A stretch of 64,000 nt of DNA from Peribolospora baueri. Lineage: Eukaryota. The position numbers and the translations under genes are program-made. The stretch lies in NCBI GenBank assembly GCA_029717555.1, contig JAMDHS010000021.1, positions 62,001 through 126,000 on the forward strand, in the 5' to 3' direction. Shown here one piece after another: positions 23,444-33,250 of the stretch. The stretch's first letter is position 1, and each line of letters starts with the position of its first letter. The notes beneath the pieces are model-generated. The model saw nothing but the letters and a program-made list of their open reading frames with translations. It was not told where the DNA came from and made no database searches.

Positions 23444-24428
23444 CCTTAGACGAATGGGTGCCTGGAGAAATTAACGGTATCCTGGTCGACATGCTTTCAA
23501 AGCGGGGACCAGCGTCAGTGGGACGACTTTCTGTACGATGCCCTGCTCGCGCATCGTGTCCAAGTCGTACGGAACGCACGGCTACTCACCATTCTACCTG
23601 GTATACGGACGCTACCCACGCCTCCCTCAAGAGCCAGTGTTCCCTCTCGCAACTGCACCGCAAACTTATGACGAGCGCATCGCTATCGCCGAGGTTCCGC
23701 TCAGCGGTATGTGCACGATCTGGAAGCCCATAGGAAAGGTGCAAATGAACGAGCACTCCGGCCGCATGTAAGAAGAGGCACGACGACGGTACAATACTTA
23801 CGTCGAAAAAGGCCTCAACATCGGCGACTGGGTTCTGCGGTTAAGGAAGACAAGACGACACAAGTTAGAACCTCGGTGGGACGGCCCCGTTCATCATACG
23901 GTCGACAAGCAGTGCGGGTGCTCACCAGTTAGGGGCACCAAGCCGTCATATCTTGCGACTCCTCGTCAATGCAGACCGATTGAAGCTCGCAAGTGGACAT
24001 GGTCCTCACTCTGCAGAATGGTAATGGGCCCGACGCCGCGACCAAGCGAGGCAACGATATGCGACGGTAGAGGCAAGATGATCGCGGACGATCAACTCAA
24101 ACGAAGGGATGATGTTTCGTGTGTTGCAGTCACCGCCTACCTCCGACGGCTCCCGCCTCCCAAGTCACCCCCGCGATATATGCGCCGTGGCTCTCGTTTA
24201 CTCTGTTCAGTTACTTCGTTTCGAAATGCCTCTCCTAGCATCCTTTTGCTCTCGCTCTCAAGCCACACTTCATACGGGGTTTGGATGGGGGGAAGGGTGT
24301 TGGTTATAAAAAAATGTCCCGAGTTGTAACCCAAATGAACGGGCCCACCGTACTACTAACTACAATCGCCTAAGATAAGGGGCGCAAGGGGACGCTCCAG
24401 CGGTGCGAAAGGATCGGGGAGAAGGGAC

Positions 24429-25043
24429 TTAGATCTCGAAGCCGAGATCGCGAGCGTGCTCGAGGATGAGCTGCTCAGTCGCGTCGATGGAGCGCTTGCG
24501 GGAGGATCCGGTGAGGTAACGCCTTGAGACGACGGCGACGTCGCGAGCCGCGATCTCGCGGCTACGACGGCATTTGACGCCGTTGTTGGAGTTGTTGGCG
24601 TTGCCTCCGATGTTGAAGTCACGGCGGCAGTGGAAGTTAGGGCCATTAATGACACCGGAGTTGGCCTGGGAGTTGTCGTGCGTGTTGGTGTTCGTCTCGG
24701 TGTTGGTGTTCGTGCTGTCGAGGAAACGCCTGAGGATAGCCTCGCCCTGCTCGATCTCGCGACGCTCCATCTCCTCCTCGAGCCACTCCTCGCGCCTGCA
24801 TTTGACGCCGTTGTTGGAGTTGTTGGCGTTACCGCCGATGTTGAAGTCACGGCCGAAGTGGCGGCAGTGCAAGTTGGGGCCATTAATTTGACCTGAGTTG
24901 GCCTGGGACTTGTCAACGGTGTTGGTGGTCGTCTCGGTGTGCGTGTTGGTCGTGTCGGCGAAGCGGGGCTCGAGAAAGCGGGGCTCGAGAGCGACCGCGG
25001 CGGTGGCGGCGACGGCGAAGACGGCGAGGGTGGTGAACTGCAT
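24429..25043 (-). CDS. Secreted Kex2-processed repeat protein A (204 aa, intronless; two Thr/Asn-rich plus DFNIGGNANNSNNGVKC modules)
   Basis: Signal peptide MQFTTLAVFAVAATAAVA; many RR/KR sites; tandem duplicated module separated by acidic spacers; codon usage looks strongly coding. Confidence 0.9.
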   Translation of the reverse strand: MQFTTLAVFAVAATAAVALEPRFLEPRFADTTNTHTETTTNTVDKSQANSGQINGPNLHCRHFGRDFNIGGNANNSNNGVKCRREEWLEEEMERREIEQGEAILRRFLDSTNTNTETNTNTHDNSQANSGVINGPNFHCRRDFNIGGNANNSNNGVKCRRSREIAARDVAVVSRRYLTGSSRKRSIDATEQLILEHARDLGFEI

Positions 25044-26430
25044 CTTGATTGATTGTATTAGGAGGGTGGTAGATCAACTACGAGGGACGTTTGTGAAAGA
25101 GGGAAGAACCTGCTTCGAAAGAAGATGAAGAGCGTGGCGTGGGGCGTTGGGGCGAAGACCGGCTTCGAGTTGGTTGGATGTAGAGAGTGTTGGAGAGGTG
25201 AGGGGAGGACCAGCAGGGGGGTTGGCCAGGCCCTTTTATGTGTTCGCAGACGTGGGCGTCGCACTCGTGTGTCTCGCCCACGAGCCTAAGCGTGTGCGAG
25301 GTCGCTGGACGAGCGAGGGCGCCCTAGTGTGGTACGGAGCAGATCGTCGGACGGAACGACCGGCTTCCGACGGCCTTGAGCGCCCTGCCTTGAGCCTAGC
25401 GCCGGCCGCCTTTGGACTAGTTCCCTGCGGGCGGTCTCCCGCAGCCATCGGATCGGTATCGCGAGTCGGGCGAAGAAAAGCGTCCTGGCAGGCCGACAGG
25501 ATGTCACGTTCGCTCAGCCGGACGATGGCGATGGCGAGGGCGTTGGACGGCTAATGTGCGAGACACATGCGGTGAAGTACGAGGCATGATCCGCCACAAG
25601 GAAGCATGCATGCAAGCGAGTTGAATATGCAACGCCACGTTGACCGGCCTGACGAGGACGCCACCGAGCATCGCCTCGGCGCCATAGGCGCTCTGAATCC
25701 GCGTCTTGTCCCTCCGCCATTCCGCGGGCCGGCGGCCGCAGCAGGATCAGACTTGCATGGGACGGATATCGGGTGAGTGGAAAACCGACGCGACGCTCAC
25801 GTCTATCCTCACACGCCCCCAAGCTCATCGCGTACCGACACCGCCCCGCAACGCCCCGCGATGCCCCGAGCGGGCGAGGCGGTGAGACACCTGGCCTGGG
25901 TCGTCCGTCGTCGAGCGAGGGACCGCAGGAAGCCCAGGACGGACGGAGGAGGACGCATGGTCGGTGTAAACTGCTCGCCGCCGACACCAGCCCCCCCTCC
26001 GTCGCTTGTGGCTCTCTCTGTCGCCATCTGTCATGTGGGCGTCGTCCGCACCGCCCTCTCCGCCAGCCAAGCACCGGCATCAACCGGGAGGAAGTTTCGT
26101 CCCATCCTCTCCACGTCCTTCGCCGTGTCGGTGCGGCAATGAGGACATACTCGTGGCGTCCGGCCGGTGGCCACCAACGCCGCCCGCGTCTGGCCTCCAA
26201 GCCCGTGACCCGCATTCCTACTACTTAAGCAGCTCATCCCCCTCGCGCTCCCTTCTTTTCCCCTCCATCCCGGAGATCCCCTTTGTTTCTTACCCCTAAC
26301 CTCTTTGCCTTCGCCTTCTTTTTGCACGGTAGCCGGTCTGCTGTAGCCCCCTTTGCCCAAACATTCCTTCAGATCTTTCAACTTCACGTTCTACCCTCAG
26401 CCTTATCTTCTTCTCCCCTCCCCCGTCACA

Positions 26431-27360
26431 ATGGTCACCTCTTCGCTCCTCAAGATCGCCCTCGTCGCCTTCGCGGCTCACGCCATGGCCACTCCCCTCG
26501 CTGAGCGGGACTACACCCGCCGTACCGACATCACTGGCCAGTGCAACTACCAGAACGACGGCTCGACGGTCAAGTGCGTCAACGCTCCCTTGATCGGCGG
26601 CTCGGCAGGCAACACGGTCATCAACGGCCCCAAGCCCGGGCCGGCGATCTACGAGCGGGAAATTGTCTACAACATGAGGGACATTGACGAGGCGGCCGTG
26701 TTCATGCGCCGCGCCGACGCGGAGGAGTTTTTGATCCGCGACAACTTGGCGGTCCGCGACACGACCATCACCGGTAATGCCAACGGCGCGAACAACGGTA
26801 ACAGCTGCAGCTTGACCCTTCGCCGCCGCGGCAACCCCAACTACACGTGCAACAACGACCCGAAGGTGGGCTCGATCGGTGGCAACACGGTGATCAACGG
26901 CCGCCGTGACGCCAACAACGGGAACAACGCCAACAAGTGCTCCATCCACGTCCGCGACGGTCACGGTACGACGTTCATTTGCGACAACGAGCCGACTGTC
27001 GGTGCGATCGGCGGCAACACGGTCGAGAACGGTCCCAACCCTGGACCGGTGACGATCGGTAAGCGCCTCAACCTCGAGGGCTCTCACACGGCGTACAACA
27101 TGGCTTCCGTTCGTGACGTTGTTGCGTACCACGACCGACGAGCTCTTCTCGAGGGCACTGAGCCGCTGTACCGCCGCGAGGACCTCTGCCCCGGCGTCCC
27201 TGTGGGCCCGAGCGGCGGCCACACGACGCTGAATGGCCCGGTGGGCCAGTCCGTTTACTACAAGAACGCGAAGCGGTGCTCGAACCAGCCGGTGCCTCCC
27301 ACCGCTCCCACCGTCACCATGAACCCTCCCGTAGCCGGCCAGGTCTACTACGGCCACTGA
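26431..27360 (+). CDS. Secreted Kex2-processed Asn/Gly/Cys repeat protein B (309 aa, intronless)
   Basis: Signal peptide MVTSSLLKIALVAFAAHAMA; repeats of C-x-N-x-P-x-(I/V)G-xx-GNTV(I/E)NG; several RR/KR sites. Confidence 0.9.
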   Translation: MVTSSLLKIALVAFAAHAMATPLAERDYTRRTDITGQCNYQNDGSTVKCVNAPLIGGSAGNTVINGPKPGPAIYEREIVYNMRDIDEAAVFMRRADAEEFLIRDNLAVRDTTITGNANGANNGNSCSLTLRRRGNPNYTCNNDPKVGSIGGNTVINGRRDANNGNNANKCSIHVRDGHGTTFICDNEPTVGAIGGNTVENGPNPGPVTIGKRLNLEGSHTAYNMASVRDVVAYHDRRALLEGTEPLYRREDLCPGVPVGPSGGHTTLNGPVGQSVYYKNAKRCSNQPVPPTAPTVTMNPPVAGQVYYGH

Positions 27361-27743
27361 ACGCGGACGTACGGATGGATGTGTGACTTCGTTGGGAACT
27401 GTTCCCGGGGAAAAAAGCCTGTACTCTAATTTAGTTAAAACCTCGTGCTGTCGGGGTGGGCTTTTTTTTCCGCTACCTCCGGCGACGGCTAATGGAAGAC
27501 GAGGTTTTTGAACGTGAATTTCTTTTGTGCACGTTTGCCAAACAAACATGAACCTGGGGAAGACGGGACGGGCGGGCAGGGCAGGTCTCCGAGAGAGAGA
27601 GAGCGTAGTGTAGTGTCGTGCCTCGCTCGCGGTTGGGATGGATTGCGTCTGACGAGACGGGAATGACGGAGATGGTGCGGGGCGGCGAGGAGGAAAAGGA
27701 AGGACGTGTTCCAGTACAGTAAATAGTACGTTCCCGGCCCGGC

Positions 27744-27812
27744 CCAAGCCAAGCCAAGCCAAGCCACCCGGTGGCCGGCTGCGAGGGTCGCCAACAGTAT
27801 CCATTCGCCGAC

Positions 27813-27848
<36 letters not shown>
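27744..27848. repeat. Microsatellites (CCAAG)n and (GTCT)n
   Basis: Tandem CCAAG at about 27744-27765 and GTCT at about 27813-27848. Confidence 0.95.
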
Positions 27849-27852
<4 letters not shown>

Positions 27853-28676
27853 TTCTTTCTTTCTTTCCTTCTGTATGTGTGTGTGAGAAGACCAGGTAGA
27901 AGAGAAAGAACGTGCTTGCTGAACGACGAGGACGGGCGTATCTATCCGAAGGTTGCTCTCCGCGCGCATGCGGGATGCGATGCGAGGAGTGCATACATAC
28001 ATGCGTTCGTTCACACGACGTGCGTTCGGTCGTTGGCGTGAGCGTATTCGGAAGCGGATGGAGCGCCCGCCTTGTGCGAGTGTCGGTTGTGTCGCCGGGT
28101 CGCCGCTCGGAGACGGACACGGAGGCAGCTAACGGCGAACCCGCGCGGACGCCTCTGTCACTACTACCACTGCCTTCTCCTCGCTAGCGATATTGGCGCA
28201 GCCCTTCCATTCATTGGCTGGCACCGACCGTCCCTCCGCCCACTCGAGGCTCCGGCTCCGCTTGGGCAGCCGCCGATGGCGCCGATGGCGCCGCCCGTCG
28301 ACGGTGGTGGTCTGACCTGACTCCGCCTTTTGCCTTTTGTCCTTCGGGCCCATCTAACAGACAGAGACACAGAGGACAATGCGCGACGACATGCGGTCCG
28401 TGCGGTGCTCATCCGGATCATTTGACAGGGCCCGTGTGACTGACTGATGACAGACTGACGCCATGCATTCTGCCCGACCGAGGCCGTTCGTGAGCGGACA
28501 CAGAAAGAGAGGGAGCGGACAACGCATAAAAGTCAACAACGGTCCGCCGACGGTTCGTCCAAAACGCACACGTTCGCAATCCATCACTTTCTTGCCTTTT
28601 TTCCTTTTTTTTCCTCCCTTCGACACATACACACACACACCGTTGCCGTTGCCCTTTCCCCAATACCATCTTGAAG

Positions 28677-29313
28677 ATGAAGTTTGCTTTCCCCGTCGTT
28701 CTCGCCCTCTCCGCCGTCGCCGGTTGCGTGGCTGCCGACGCGGCCGCTACGCCTGTGAGTGCCTGGCTTGGCTTTGCTGCATAAGGTATGGATGGATGGA
28801 TGGACGGGTAGACTGACCGAATCCACGTCGCTTCTCTTCCACGCCTCGCTCCCAGGTCGCCGTCGCTGCCCGCCAAGCGACGTTCTCGTGCGGCAGCAAA
28901 CGAGATTTCACCGTCGGAGGCACGTGAGTGGGGGTCGTAAGAAGGAGAAGAGGCGAAGAAGGTGGGAGCGAAGGCATCTGACGAACAAGTCTCTCCCTCT
29001 CTCTCATCTCGTTTCTAGCACCACCGGCAGCAACAACAACATAACGTGCCCGGACAGCGGGTCTGGCTCCGGCACGTCCGTCCACTCGGTGTCCAGCTCG
29101 GACGGCACGACGACCATCGTATCCGTCTCGAGCTCTGGGCCGTCCGGCACGACCGTCAGCGTCAGCGGCGGTTCGAGCACTAGCACCATCATCCCTTCCC
29201 AGGCTTCGAGCGGCAGCAGCAGCGGTAAGAACGATGCACCGATGACGGCGCAGGCGCCCATTGTCGCTATCTCCCTCGCCATGCTCGCTGGCGCTGGTGC
29301 GGTGTTGCTGTGA
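28677..29313 (+). CDS. Predicted GPI-anchored Ser/Thr-rich surface protein C (146 aa, 3 exons) carrying one copy of the protein-A motif
   Basis: Exons 28677-28754, 28856-28923, 29019-29313 (GTGAGT donors, CAG/TAG acceptors, phases consistent) give MKFAFPVVLALSAVAGCVAADAAATPVAVAARQATFSCGSKRDFTVGGTTTGSNNNITCPDSGSGSG...SSGKNDAPMTAQAPIVAISLAMLAGAGAVLL. Confidence 0.88.
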
Positions 29314-30688
29314 AGGAAGGAGGAGCGATACGGACGGTTGGGGAGGCGTCAAGTAGTCACCTAATTAACCTTCGAAGCGCTACCTACCGCTCGTGATGAA
29401 TTGTAACGAACGACATTGTATCGACATCGTCATCATCGTCGTTGTCGTCATCATCACGCACAGAAGACAGAGAAACCCGGGGAGAGGCTGGGTCGTCGAG
29501 AAGGAGTCAAACAGCCGGCATTCGTCTGTCGTCTTCCTTTCGTTTTTCTTATTTCCCCCGTTTTTCCGTTTTCCGTTCTGACCGGACGAGCGGTCAAAGG
29601 CCGTGTCCGTATTCGGTCTCGAAGAGAGGGAAATGTGCAGATGGGCCGGGAGGGCAAGGATGGGCGGATGTATGGTATGGCCTGGGCGAGCGCTTTCCCG
29701 CACCCATCCATTCATTCATCTATTTATCCAGCCATCCGTTCATCCTTCCATCCGTCCATCCATCCATCCGCCCAGCCGCGTTCCTCCGGCGGGGCTCGCG
29801 AGACGGGCGAGACGGGCGAGTTAGGATGGATGGATGGCTTGGGCTTGGGCTTGGGGCTTGGCGCGGAGGCGTACGCAGTGGACACGGTTAGCTTACGCCT
29901 ATAATGCAGTCGGTCAGTCGGTCGGCTACATACATGCGTCCGCCCGCGGCGTCCATTAGCAAAGATGAAGTGCAGCGGGCGCTCGCTCGGACGGACATGG
30001 GCAACGAGGAGGGGAGGGGGAGCGCGCCGCTGGCTGGCGTCCCTCCCTCGGCGGCCTGCTTACGACGCCTCGGCGTCGCCTTGCCTCGCCTTTCCCTGGG
30101 TGGAGGGCGACGACGGGAGCGAGTGAGAGAAAGAAAGTGGCGCACGGTGACATGGAGGCGGCGTATGGGTCTGCGTCGCGGTCGACGGGGGGAAGGAGGC
30201 AAGGGAGGACGTCGACGGCGGCGGTGGGACGGGACGACGGCCGTCGTCGGTTGTTCATTTGATATCGTGGCGGTGGCGCTGGTGTTGGCGGCGGCGGTGT
30301 TAGTGGTCGTCGGCTTTTGGGCGTCGTCTCGTGGTCATCTCGTGGTCAGGTCGGTGGCCCGCGGTCCAACCCATATCCATAATCATATTCATATCTTTCC
30401 TTCTTCGGCCCATCGCCGCCGCTTCCGGCCACCCCGCACAGACAGACTGAGACAAAAGACAAACGGACGACGTCGTCGTCGATCACCGTCGATCGATCGC
30501 CGCCGCATACAGTCGCGGTCAGTGACGGTCACGGTCAGTCGTCGTCATCTTCGTCGTCAGTCAGTCAGAGCGCATTCATCCATCCATCCATCCTCGTCGC
30601 CGCTCCTCACCATTCTCCTCACCATCATCACCTCCTCCCCATTCTCATCCTCCTCCTCCCCATCCTCCATCCCCCCTCCACCCACCTC

Positions 30689-32366
30689 ATGATCGCCTCC
30701 ATGTCCCTCTCCGCCCCCTCGACCAGCCGCCTCCAGCCACCCAGCCCCGCCCTCTCTCTTAATAGCCCCGGAGGAGGCATTCTCCTCAACCGCCATCGAC
30801 CACCCTGCCTCGCCGCCGCCCAAGACCAGCAGCCGCCGCCCATCCACTCCTCCGCCCCGCCCGCCTCGGACGCTGCTGAGCCCCACGCCCACGCGCCCAC
30901 TTTCACCACCACCTCCTTCCTCCCTTCCACCTCTGCCGTCCCCTTCGGCACCCCGCCCAGAAGACACGCGGAAATAGCGAACGAAGACGGCGACGGCGCC
31001 ACCGTCGACGCTGCCGACCAAGGTGAGCAAGCGAGCCAGCGAGCCAGCGGACATGGGCACAACTTCTTCAACAACTCCGAGCTCACATCCCCGGTCCTCT
31101 TTCTCTTCCTTCCCCTTCTTCTGCTTTTCTCGCCATATATTCCTGCTTCCCCCTTCACGGCCATCGGCTTAGATCCATTGACCGCGCCGACGATGACGCG
31201 GCCGACGTCGATCATGATGACAACGACCACGATAGGCGTCGCCAAGACCGATCCCCAACCAGCTCCTCCGCCTTCCGACGTCGACGCCGACCTGTCCCGC
31301 GGCCGCACGGATGCCGGCGACCGAGCGACCGCCAGTGGGTCTGTCCCCACCTCGCGCTCCGCCTCCCAGACCGTCAAGATCCGCTTCGCGCCCTTGCCCG
31401 ACCCTTCGCGCTACGACGATGACTCCTCCTCCTTCGACGACAGTGAAATCTCGGACGAGTACGACATCGTGCACATCAACGACACCAACGCCCCTTCATC
31501 CGGCGCCCTCCTCTCTGCTTCTGCGCCCAACGACGCCGCCGGCCGCGCCTGGGCCGAGGGGCAGGAGATCGTCTTGGCCGACGCCGAGGGCAAGACGCTA
31601 CGGGGTACCCTCGGCGGCATGGTCAAAAGGCCTGCCAGGTCGCGCAAAGAGGCTGGCGCCGCGGGCGCGCGAATCGGGGATGAAATCGAGGAGCGCATCG
31701 TCCAGCTCGATGGCTCGCCGTGGGCGGCGGCCGTCGCGCCAGCGGGAGAAGACGGTGGCGTCCGTCATCCCGCCGCCAAGGATCGCCCCGGCGGGGGCCA
31801 ATCCTCTGCCTCTGTGGCAACCAAGTCGGCCGGATGGGGCAAGAGGCTCCTCCGACCGCTGAGGATCGTCGGCAGCAGCGGCGGCGGCGCCTTCTCCTCC
31901 GACGCCCTCTCTCTCTCCCGCTCTCACTCTCGCGACGAAGGCAACGGTGCTGGCGCTACCGCCGACCGACGCGACGCGTCTGCACCGACGACCACCCTTG
32001 TCAGAGGACAGCTGGCGCGCCGGAGCAGCACGGGCCAGCTGATGGGCGAGAACCCGCACCGATCGCAGGCGGAGAAGGAAAGGATGAAGAGCATGCACGG
32101 TCGCAAGATCTCTCTCTTTGGCGGCGTTGGCGGCGGTGGTGGTGGTGGCGGCTCGGAGAGTCATTTCCCCCGCATAGACTCGTTGCCGGAGAAGAGCAGC
32201 AGCCGCCGGAGGTCGTCGTGCGATAAGGACAAGGACAAGGACGGCGGGAGGGGACGGAGGCTGTTCGGTTTCGGCAGCGGCTCCGTCACCTCGGTCACCC
32301 CGGATAACGACCTCTCCCTCTCGCGTACTCGCTCCGGCGGCACATCTGGCTCGACGTCGACCGTCT

Positions 32367-32398
<32 letters not shown>

Positions 32399-33250
32399 GG
32401 CGGTGAGCGAAGGAGGAAGAGATCCCGCTCCCGCGAAGGCCAGACGCCGCGAGAACGGGTGCCACTTGGTTCGGTGGGTTCTCGAAACCGCCAACTGCGC
32501 GAGCTCCGGCCGGGCGGAGCGGCAGGCGCGCCTCCGCCGTCATTCCGACCCTGGTCGTCCTCCTCCCTCCTCTCTTCCAACCCCAGCGTCGCCGGTCCCG
32601 GTCCCGCCGGCGCGCTCAATAAGCCCACCACCGTCGTGGACGAGCCCAAGTTTGATGAGTGGGGCCCACTCGCCTCGCCATCGTCCCGTCCGATCAACCT
32701 CACCGCCACGCCAGCCGTGGGGTCGTCCTCCGCCGACAAAACCGCAGTCACCGCCAAGGCGGGTTCATCAGGCGAAGGAGGCGACGCGGAGGACGACGAG
32801 GACGACGGGAGCGGGATGGCATGGGTACGACGAAGGCGAAAGCAGAGGGAGGAGAAGGAGAGGAGGGAGAAGGAGGCCAAGGAGGCCGCAGCTGCCGCGG
32901 CCGCTGCGATGAAGGGCGGCGCATCCGCCGACGACGCCGATGACAATTCAACCAAGCCGACTCCCGCTCGGGCGGCGGGCGACGGGATGGGCAACTCGGA
33001 TGAGCAGGTCATTGCCAGCTTTTCATCTTCGTCTTCCTCCACGCCATCCTCGTCTTCTTCGTCCCGGACTTCTTGCGATGAAGAAGGTCGACGGGATGAT
33101 GGGCTGGCTGTCCGTAGCGATGAGGAGGAGGACGAGGACGAGGAGGAAGAGGAAGAGGTGCTGCAGAAGGAGGAAGAAGAGGCGGAGAAGGCTCGACGAA
33201 CGACAAAGGCCGCCGGCGCCGAGGTCGTCCACGTTCACAAGCGCGAGTGA
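30689..33250 (+). CDS. Hypothetical low-complexity/disordered protein (probable intron near 31023-31171)
   Basis: Long open frame with islands KIRFAPLPDP, DDGSGMAWVRRRRKQREE and RRTTKAAGAE between Ser/Gly/Glu runs. No recognisable domain. Confidence 0.7.

What the first reader, a model, noticed from the sequence alone, without database searches (positions are those of the whole stretch)
28677..29313. Spliced GPI-type protein whose predicted mature N-terminus is the protein-A peptide
The gene is not assembled in the ORF track because two introns split it, and the shared motif spans the exon 2/3 junction (DFTVGGT|TTGSNNNITC). Cleavage at SKR would expose DFTVGG... at the N-terminus, as RR cleavage exposes DFNIGG... 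in A. The upstream Cys context is also kept (TFSC-GSKR vs NFHC-RR). A Ser/Thr/Gly stalk and an NDA + hydrophobic tail fit a GPI anchor. Inference: a surface-displayed nucleator, receptor or anchor for the soluble peptides.
Basis: partly seen in the sequence, partly recalled or inferred. Interest (0 to 1): 0.75.

Follow-up and report, generated by a model that had tools for sequence, protein, structure and literature searches.

The report
Surface-anchored copy of a secreted peptide
A fungus keeps, next to two genes that release small peptides, a third gene that seems to pin a similar peptide to its cell surface, possibly as the foothold on which the free peptides build a coat.

Summary
The gene model holds. 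Three exons (28677-28754, 28856-28923, 29019-29313) give a 146-aa protein (C): signal peptide, KR site, 17-residue Cys-ended motif, Ser/Thr/Val stalk and a GPI-type tail.

The motif is a relative of the protein-A peptide, not the peptide itself (8 of 17 identical). It is also in neighbour B (7 of 17). The link is hard to put down to chance: the R-D-F-x-[IV]-G-G word occurs three times in the 22.7-Mb genome (A twice, C once), and the exon-3 half matches A exactly in register. Composition-adjusted BLASTP, however, does not call it significant.

Two Cys flank the KR site, so C is probably a disulfide-linked two-chain protein. B has distant relatives in Ceraceosorus that keep a Cys...dibasic...Cys module. 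A has none found; C's protein was not searched in public databases.

Best reading (about 0.4): a repellent-like surface coat in which C is the wall- or membrane-bound anchor or seed, as long chaplins are for short ones. Expression, GPI addition, cleavage and binding are all unshown. New variant of a known kind.

The parts
28525..28532 (+). TATA-like box CATAAAAG, about 145 nt upstream of C's ATG; the same 8-mer lies about 190 nt upstream of A
   Evidence: 3 matches in the window vs 0.6 expected; pattern chosen after the fact
28677..28754 (+). Gene C exon 1: signal peptide (about residues 1-20, judged by hydropathy) and start of an Ala-rich pro-piece
28755..28855 (+). Intron 1, 101 nt, phase 0, GTGAGT...CTGAC...CAG
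28856..28923 (+). Gene C exon 2: rest of pro-piece, single Arg 32, F-x-C (Cys38, 28889-28891), KR site (28898-28903), first half of the shared motif
28924..29018 (+). Intron 2, 95 nt, phase 2, GTGAGT...CTGAC...TAG, inside the shared motif
29019..29049 (+). Exon 3 start: second half of the motif, ending at Cys59; N-glycosylation sequon at Asn56
29050..29229 (+). Ser/Thr/Gly stalk (71% S+T+G over residues 61-119) with an Ile/Val/Thr-rich stretch at residues 77-86
29230..29313 (+). GPI-type signal: omega candidate Asn120 (N-D-A), spacer, 17-residue hydrophobic tail running to the stop
24429..25043 (-). Gene A, single ORF, 204 aa: secreted precursor with two repeats, each a 33-aa Thr/Asn chain ending in Cys plus the 17-aa peptide ending in Cys, and acidic spacers between RR sites
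25233..25240 (-). TATA-like box upstream of A
26431..27360 (+). Gene B, single ORF, 309 aa, divergent from A: secreted precursor with repeated Cys-pair modules and dibasic sites; one copy of the 17-aa motif at residues 110-126; relatives in Ceraceosorus

Best explanation
C is the cell-bound member of a three-gene family cluster (A, B, C). Inferred steps: C enters the secretory pathway, receives a GPI anchor near Asn120 and heavy O-mannosylation on the stalk, forms a Cys38-Cys59 bond, and is cut by Kex2 at KR (perhaps also after Arg32). This displays one copy of the A-type peptide, with the same new Asp-Phe N-terminus as the free peptides, at the tip of a stalk. A and B are cut into Asn/Gly/Thr-rich, Cys-ended chains that self-associate as beta-strands. 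C is built into these assemblies and holds or seeds them at the cell surface, giving an adhesive or water-repellent coat like Ustilago repellents, with the long/short division of labour seen in chaplins. Shown: the gene structure, the motif kinship, the clustering and the signals in the sequence. Inferred: expression, GPI addition, cleavage, disulfides, self-assembly and binding.
For: Motif kinship and register across the intron. A, B and C lie within 4.9 kb, and each gave only itself as a significant match in the genome. The same TATA-like 8-mer lies upstream of A and C. C keeps the processing context (F-x-C, basic site, Asp), not only the core. A Kex2-type P domain is in the genome. In B's four distant relatives, Cys pairs 10-21 residues apart with a dibasic site between them recur: 3 such pairs in each of the four. 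Precedents, read as passages: Rep1 is Kex2-cut into peptides that form amyloid-like fibrils in the hyphal wall (PMC3133707; PMC4617103). Long chaplins carry the same domain as short ones plus a wall anchor, and both kinds are needed for robust aerial hyphae (PMC3079736). Ile/Val/Thr-rich cores form amyloid in GPI adhesins (PMC3981074).
Against: No binding, fold or expression data. Composition-adjusted BLASTP does not find C-A significant (E 0.3), nor B-A by the comparison tool (E 0.97). The 17-mer differs at 9 of 17 positions, which is a lot for in-register co-assembly. A and C carry N-glycosylation sequons inside the motif at different positions, which could hinder stacking. The distant B relatives do not keep the 17-mer (best scores 14-24 against C's motif, at background level), and no conserved A-B-C cluster could be checked. 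The genome already has class I hydrophobins (7 matches on 5 stretches of 4 contigs), so it does not obviously need a repellent coat. The A peptides are hydrophilic, unlike the amphipathic Rep1 repeats.
Confidence: 0.4

Rival explanations
1. C arose from the same ancestral module as A but works alone, as a small GPI surface protein or adhesin whose tip and stalk bind other C molecules or a substrate. The neighbourhood reflects local duplication, not partnership.
For: Only 8 of 17 identity to A. The stalk has its own Ile/Val/Thr-rich core, like Als/Flo adhesins. Tandem duplication alone explains the clustering.
Against: C keeps the cleavage site and both Cys in the same arrangement as A and shares a promoter 8-mer with A. 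A lone adhesin would have little need to keep these.
Confidence: 0.25
2. C is a covalent tether in the Aga1p/Aga2p manner: its Cys residues bond to the Cys-ended chains of A or B and display them one-to-one, without fibrils.
For: Each predicted A chain ends in Cys. The F-x-C and N-N-x3-C cysteines recur in all three genes, so pairing between molecules is possible. In a-agglutinin a GPI subunit holds a small secreted subunit through two disulfides (PMC7782832 passages).
Against: C has just two mature Cys, which can satisfy each other. Aga1p is far larger, and nothing read suggests it repeats its partner's sequence.
Confidence: 0.13
3. A and B yield two-chain signalling or antagonistic peptides (pheromone-like, or like yeast killer toxins), and C is a surface decoy, self-marker or immunity partner.
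For: Cys pairs flanking a dibasic site give disulfide-linked two-chain products. Many KEP peptides are signals or toxins (PMC9769878 passages). K1 toxin is a heterodimer with the membrane receptor Kre1p (abstract start of PMC5705960 in a listing).
Against: The peptides are nearly uncharged and Asn/Gly/Thr-rich, unlike pore formers. No Pfam or PDB likeness for A or B. A mimic of a ligand is a poor receptor for it, and C has no cytoplasmic part.
Confidence: 0.12
4. C is an ordinary small Ser/Thr-rich GPI protein, and the likeness to A is a chance product of Asn/Gly/Thr composition.
For: BLASTP E 0.3 with composition adjustment and no hit with SEG. The motif patterns were chosen after seeing the sequences.
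Against: The genome-wide rarity of the 7-codon word (3 matches, all in this cluster; control 1), composition-keeping shuffles, and the exact register of both halves across the intron.
Confidence: 0.08

Closest known systems
Kex2-processed repeat proteins (KEPs), especially Ustilago maydis Rep1 repellents, Hum3 and Rsp1
   Same: A and B have a signal peptide and repeats separated by dibasic sites; A's long chains (33 aa) are about the size of repellent peptides (34-53 aa). B's named relatives are in Ceraceosorus, an early-diverging smut.
   Different: A and B chains are Cys-ended and hydrophilic. No GPI-anchored paralogue of Rep1 appears in the passages read. C has one copy, so it is not a KEP. 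Sequence likeness to Rep1 was not tested.
Streptomyces chaplins (long ChpA-C, short ChpD-H)
   Same: The same small two-Cys module exists free and fused to a wall anchor.
   Different: Bacterial, sortase-anchored, not cut from a polyprotein; no chaplin Pfam match for A, B or B's relatives at E up to 10. This is an analogy, not homology.
Yeast a-agglutinin Aga1p/Aga2p
   Same: A GPI-anchored subunit holds a small secreted partner by disulfides.
   Different: C is 146 aa against 725 for Aga1p, and it carries a copy of the partner's own motif.
Small GPI adhesins with amyloid cores (Als, Flo, Eap1)
   Same: Signal peptide, Ser/Thr stalk, GPI tail and an Ile/Val/Thr-rich segment.
   Different: No folded binding domain. 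The head is a 17-residue peptide behind a Kex2 site.
CBOM_06553 (Ceraceosorus bombacis) and IE81DRAFT_243444 (C. guamensis), hypothetical proteins
   Same: Homologues of B (BLASTP pairwise E 4e-10 for the first), with conserved Cys and dibasic sites.
   Different: Uncharacterised. They lack the 17-mer shared by A, B and C, and have no GPI-like tail by eye. CEH16621 is not in the KEP table of PMC7329392.

Membership tests
Fungal GPI-anchored protein (gene C) | N-terminal signal peptide | tested here: met
   Hydropathy about 2 over residues 1-20 after Met-Lys; no SignalP was available.
Fungal GPI-anchored protein (gene C) | C-terminal omega-site consensus and hydrophobic tail, no internal transmembrane segment | tested here: met
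   Consensus from PMC5555451 matches at 115, 116 and 120; A and B negative; internal hydropathy at most 0.6 over residues 31-120. The pattern is permissive.
Fungal GPI-anchored protein (gene C) | Lipid or wall attachment through the omega residue | not testable with these tools
   Needs PI-PLC or HF-pyridine release.
KEP (definition of PMC7329392) | ER signal peptide plus repeated sequences separated by Kex2 sites, in gene C | tested here: not met
   One motif copy and one KR site; definition read.
KEP (definition of PMC7329392) | The same, in genes A and B | tested here: met
   A: two repeats, 81-91% identical in DNA, and 7 dibasic cuts; B: three repeats and 9 dibasic cuts.
KEP (definition of PMC7329392) | Actual Kex2 cleavage | not testable with these tools
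   A P-domain protease gene is present; cleavage needs peptidomics.
Rep1-type repellents | Sequence homology to Rep1 repeats | not tested
   No Rep1 sequence was retrieved, and none came up in searches with A or B.
Rep1-type repellents | [quoted passage not shown] | not testable with these tools
   Composition leans hydrophilic; folds uninformative.
Chaplins | Chaplin domain | tested here: not met
   No such Pfam match for A, B or four B relatives at E up to 10. C itself was not scanned.
Chaplins | Same module present free and on a wall-anchored carrier (works-like test) | tested here: met
   against the description.
Hydrophobins | Eight-Cys pattern (recalled) or Pfam Hydrophobin match | tested here: not met
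   C has 2 mature Cys and A has 4. The genome's PF01185 matches lie on other contigs.
Dikaritin RiPP precursors | DUF3328/UstYa gene nearby | tested here: inconclusive
   No PF11807 match in the genome, but the control genomes gave none either.
Pir wall proteins | Repeat Q[IV]xDGQ[IVP]Q | tested here: not met
   Pattern; read by eye against the translations. A has only a loose look-alike lacking the Asp and the last Gln.

The most novel reading that the evidence does not exclude
A eukaryotic counterpart of the long/short chaplin or curli subunit/nucleator design: one fungal gene cluster encodes Kex2-released, disulfide-paired fibril peptides together with a GPI-anchored paralogue that is activated by the same cut and seeds the fibrils on the cell. 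A bolder rider (about 0.05): A's long chains each carry six Thr at alternate positions, so stacked fibrils would present a flat Thr array like those of ice-binding proteins (that likeness is recalled, not tested).
Probability: 0.3. Interest if true: 0.75.

Novelty: new variant of a known kind. Interest (0 to 1): 0.52.

Why it matters
Thousands of fungal KEPs are catalogued, and the functions of most are unknown (PMC7329392, PMC9769878). The repellent passages read here do not say what holds the fibrils on the wall. A dedicated anchored copy of the peptide would offer a simple answer. It would also give a search rule: look beside KEP genes for spliced GPI genes with one copy of the repeat, which repeat-based KEP surveys cannot see. 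If C works alone, the case is a modest example of a peptide module moved onto a GPI stalk.

Tried and rejected
Expression: no RNA holder was listed for 24200-29600; no evidence either way.

Relatives: none for A by word search (755 candidates), in metagenome contigs or in the Atlas. None for B by word search or in metagenome contigs. A, B and the Raptor ORF are not in the collection as exact sequences. A profile of B plus A found 2 proteins; a profile of B and those two found 2 more. All are B-like; A vs P0002 is not significant. C's spliced protein was not searched against any family or homologue database, so it cannot be called an orphan. Its DNA matches only itself in the genome.

Structure: AlphaFold2 models of B (3 sequences, pLDDT 35.7) and A (single, 39.1) are unusable, so no fold search was run. 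No PDB sequence match for the repeat profile. No complex prediction was sent: the peptide is under 30 residues and the hypothesis is a filament.

Other: a second genome pattern gave 6 matches, 2 in A. Loci of the other 4 held no match to the motif. No DUF3494 ice-binding or UstYa match, both without a positive control. DNA identity of 33-35 of 51 between the motifs was not counted, as it follows largely from the amino-acid identity. DNA likeness of the signal peptides is weak evidence in GC-rich Ala/Val/Leu codons. The bacterial promoter scan does not apply. Motif searches in KEP supplements found nothing, but the tables seen list accessions, not sequences.

Not in print as far as searched: (GPI-anchored, Kex2, nucleat, functional amyloid, secreted peptides, fung; at least 5 of 6) gave 0 papers. 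Searches listed none on an anchored paralogue of a KEP peptide. Most subscription papers are outside this library.

Full report
Setting. The window comes from an intron-rich fungal genome of 22.7 Mb in 668 contigs, with GC 58-59%. Flanking genes are housekeeping: MFS, SBF, CCT, Raptor and arginyl-tRNA synthetase. The genome has class I hydrophobins and a Kex2-type P domain. The species was not determined. The only named relatives of a cluster gene are from Ceraceosorus, which suggests a basidiomycete. Size and GC do not fit the five Tilletia species described in PMC7184893 (24-29.9 Mb, 54.8-56.7%; passages).

The gene model. Both introns begin GTGAGT, measure 101 and 95 nt, and have a CTGAC branch site 39 and 37 nt from the acceptor. 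Three of 11 regex-found introns in conserved window genes, chosen by eye at frame breaks, look the same. The main rival uses a GTGCGG donor at 28888 and would remove Cys38, KR and half the motif. A TATA-like box lies about 145 nt upstream, and the same 8-mer precedes A. There is no transcript evidence.

The motif. The pattern Arg, D-x-x-[IV]-x-G-x5-N-N-x3-C occurs in A twice, B once and C once. C matches A at 8 of 17 and B at 7 of 17. Four tests favour real kinship: composition-keeping shuffles (1 and 0 of 5000); rank 1-2 of 133,651 positions; three genome-wide matches of the exon-2 word, all in this cluster, against one for the reversed control; and the best exon-3 match to A's second half starting at the first codon after the acceptor, out of 293 windows. 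The last result also supports the splice site independently. Against: composition-adjusted BLASTP gives E 0.3, SEG removes the hit, and the patterns were chosen after the fact. I put kinship at about 0.9.

Anatomy of C. Signal peptide (about 1-20); an Ala-rich pro-piece of five X-Ala/X-Pro dipeptides ending in a single Arg32 (possibly chance in an Ala-rich stretch); a short chain with F-x-C (Cys38); KR; the motif ending at Cys59; a stalk of 71% Ser/Thr/Gly with an Ile/Val/Thr-rich stretch; and a GPI consensus with Asn120 as one of three omega candidates. With only two mature Cys, one on each side of KR, the likeliest product is a two-chain, disulfide-linked, anchored protein (inference). Cuts at single Arg residues and N-terminal pyroglutamate are reported for basidiomycete KEPs (PMC9769878 passages), which makes a Gln33 start plausible.

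The neighbours. A has two repeats, each a 33-aa Thr/Asn chain ending F/L-x-C and a 17-aa peptide ending in Cys, about 3.5 and 1.7 kDa. B has repeated Cys pairs and dibasic sites. Four distant B relatives were found, two named from Ceraceosorus and two unnamed. They keep Cys pairs 10-21 residues apart around a dibasic site, but not the 17-mer. In B and its relatives the order is N-rich strand-Cys, dibasic, x-Cys. In A and C it is F-x-Cys, basic site, N-rich strand-Cys, so C is built on A's frame. The A-B likeness is itself borderline once composition is corrected (E 0.006 to 0.97). A, B and C each gave only themselves as a significant match in the genome. No relative of A was found, and C's protein was not searched.

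How it most likely works. The simplest use for one anchored copy of a peptide that neighbouring genes release in free form, with the same cut and the same cysteines, is to be built into an assembly of those peptides and hold it on the cell. Rep1 shows that Kex2-released peptides can form a wall-surface amyloid coat (PMC3133707, PMC4617103; passages). Chaplins show the free-plus-anchored design (PMC3079736; passages). I give this 0.4. Rivals: a stand-alone adhesin (0.25), a one-to-one disulfide tether like Aga1p/Aga2p (0.13; PMC7782832 passages), a decoy or immunity partner for signal or toxin peptides (0.12; K1 papers seen as a listing only), and chance (0.08). Points against the coat model are the 9 differences in 17, glycosylation sequons inside the motif, hydrophilic composition, resident hydrophobins, and no structural support.

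Comparison and novelty. A and B meet the KEP definition (PMC7329392; passages, supplements). C does not; it is a GPI-type protein by sequence. None is a chaplin, hydrophobin or Pir protein by the tests run. The system works, at best guess, like repellents with a chaplin-style anchor. Searches listed no paper on a GPI-anchored paralogue of a KEP peptide, in a library that lacks most subscription papers. Supplements of PMC6339444 and PMC7329392 showed accession tables, so unseen sequence files could bear on this. The verdict is a new variant of a known kind: real anatomy, unproven function, interest about 0.5.

Noticed in passing
window 24429-25043 (-), protein A residues 32-42 and 111-121: Each long chain of A has six Thr at alternate positions (61 and 3 of 100,000 composition shuffles do this). 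This suggests a flat Thr-faced beta-strand, reminiscent (recalled) of ice-binding T-x-T ladders, though the Thr could be O-mannosylated.
   Followed up: partly
window 23772-24326 (+) and upstream to about 22600: A weak integrase C-terminal match (PF18697, E 0.002, below cut-off) among short broken ORFs just downstream of A; probably a decayed LTR-retrotransposon relic bordering the cluster.
   Followed up: partly
window 24429-27360 against 28677-29313: A and B are single uninterrupted ORFs in an intron-rich genome, while C has two introns, one inside the shared motif. Whether the intron was gained in C or lost in A and B is unresolved.
   Followed up: no
window 30689-33250 (+): An 853-aa low-complexity ORF with no Pfam match lies downstream of C; not examined.
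   Followed up: no
G000 contigs C208, C329, C472, C646 (L005-L011): Class I hydrophobin matches, 7 in all; the one in L005 sits in a 339-aa open frame and may be a longer fusion.
   Followed up: no
P0001-P0004: An undescribed family of Cys-pair, dibasic-site precursors in Ceraceosorus and unnamed runs, related to B; CEH16621 is absent from the published KEP table.
   Followed up: partly
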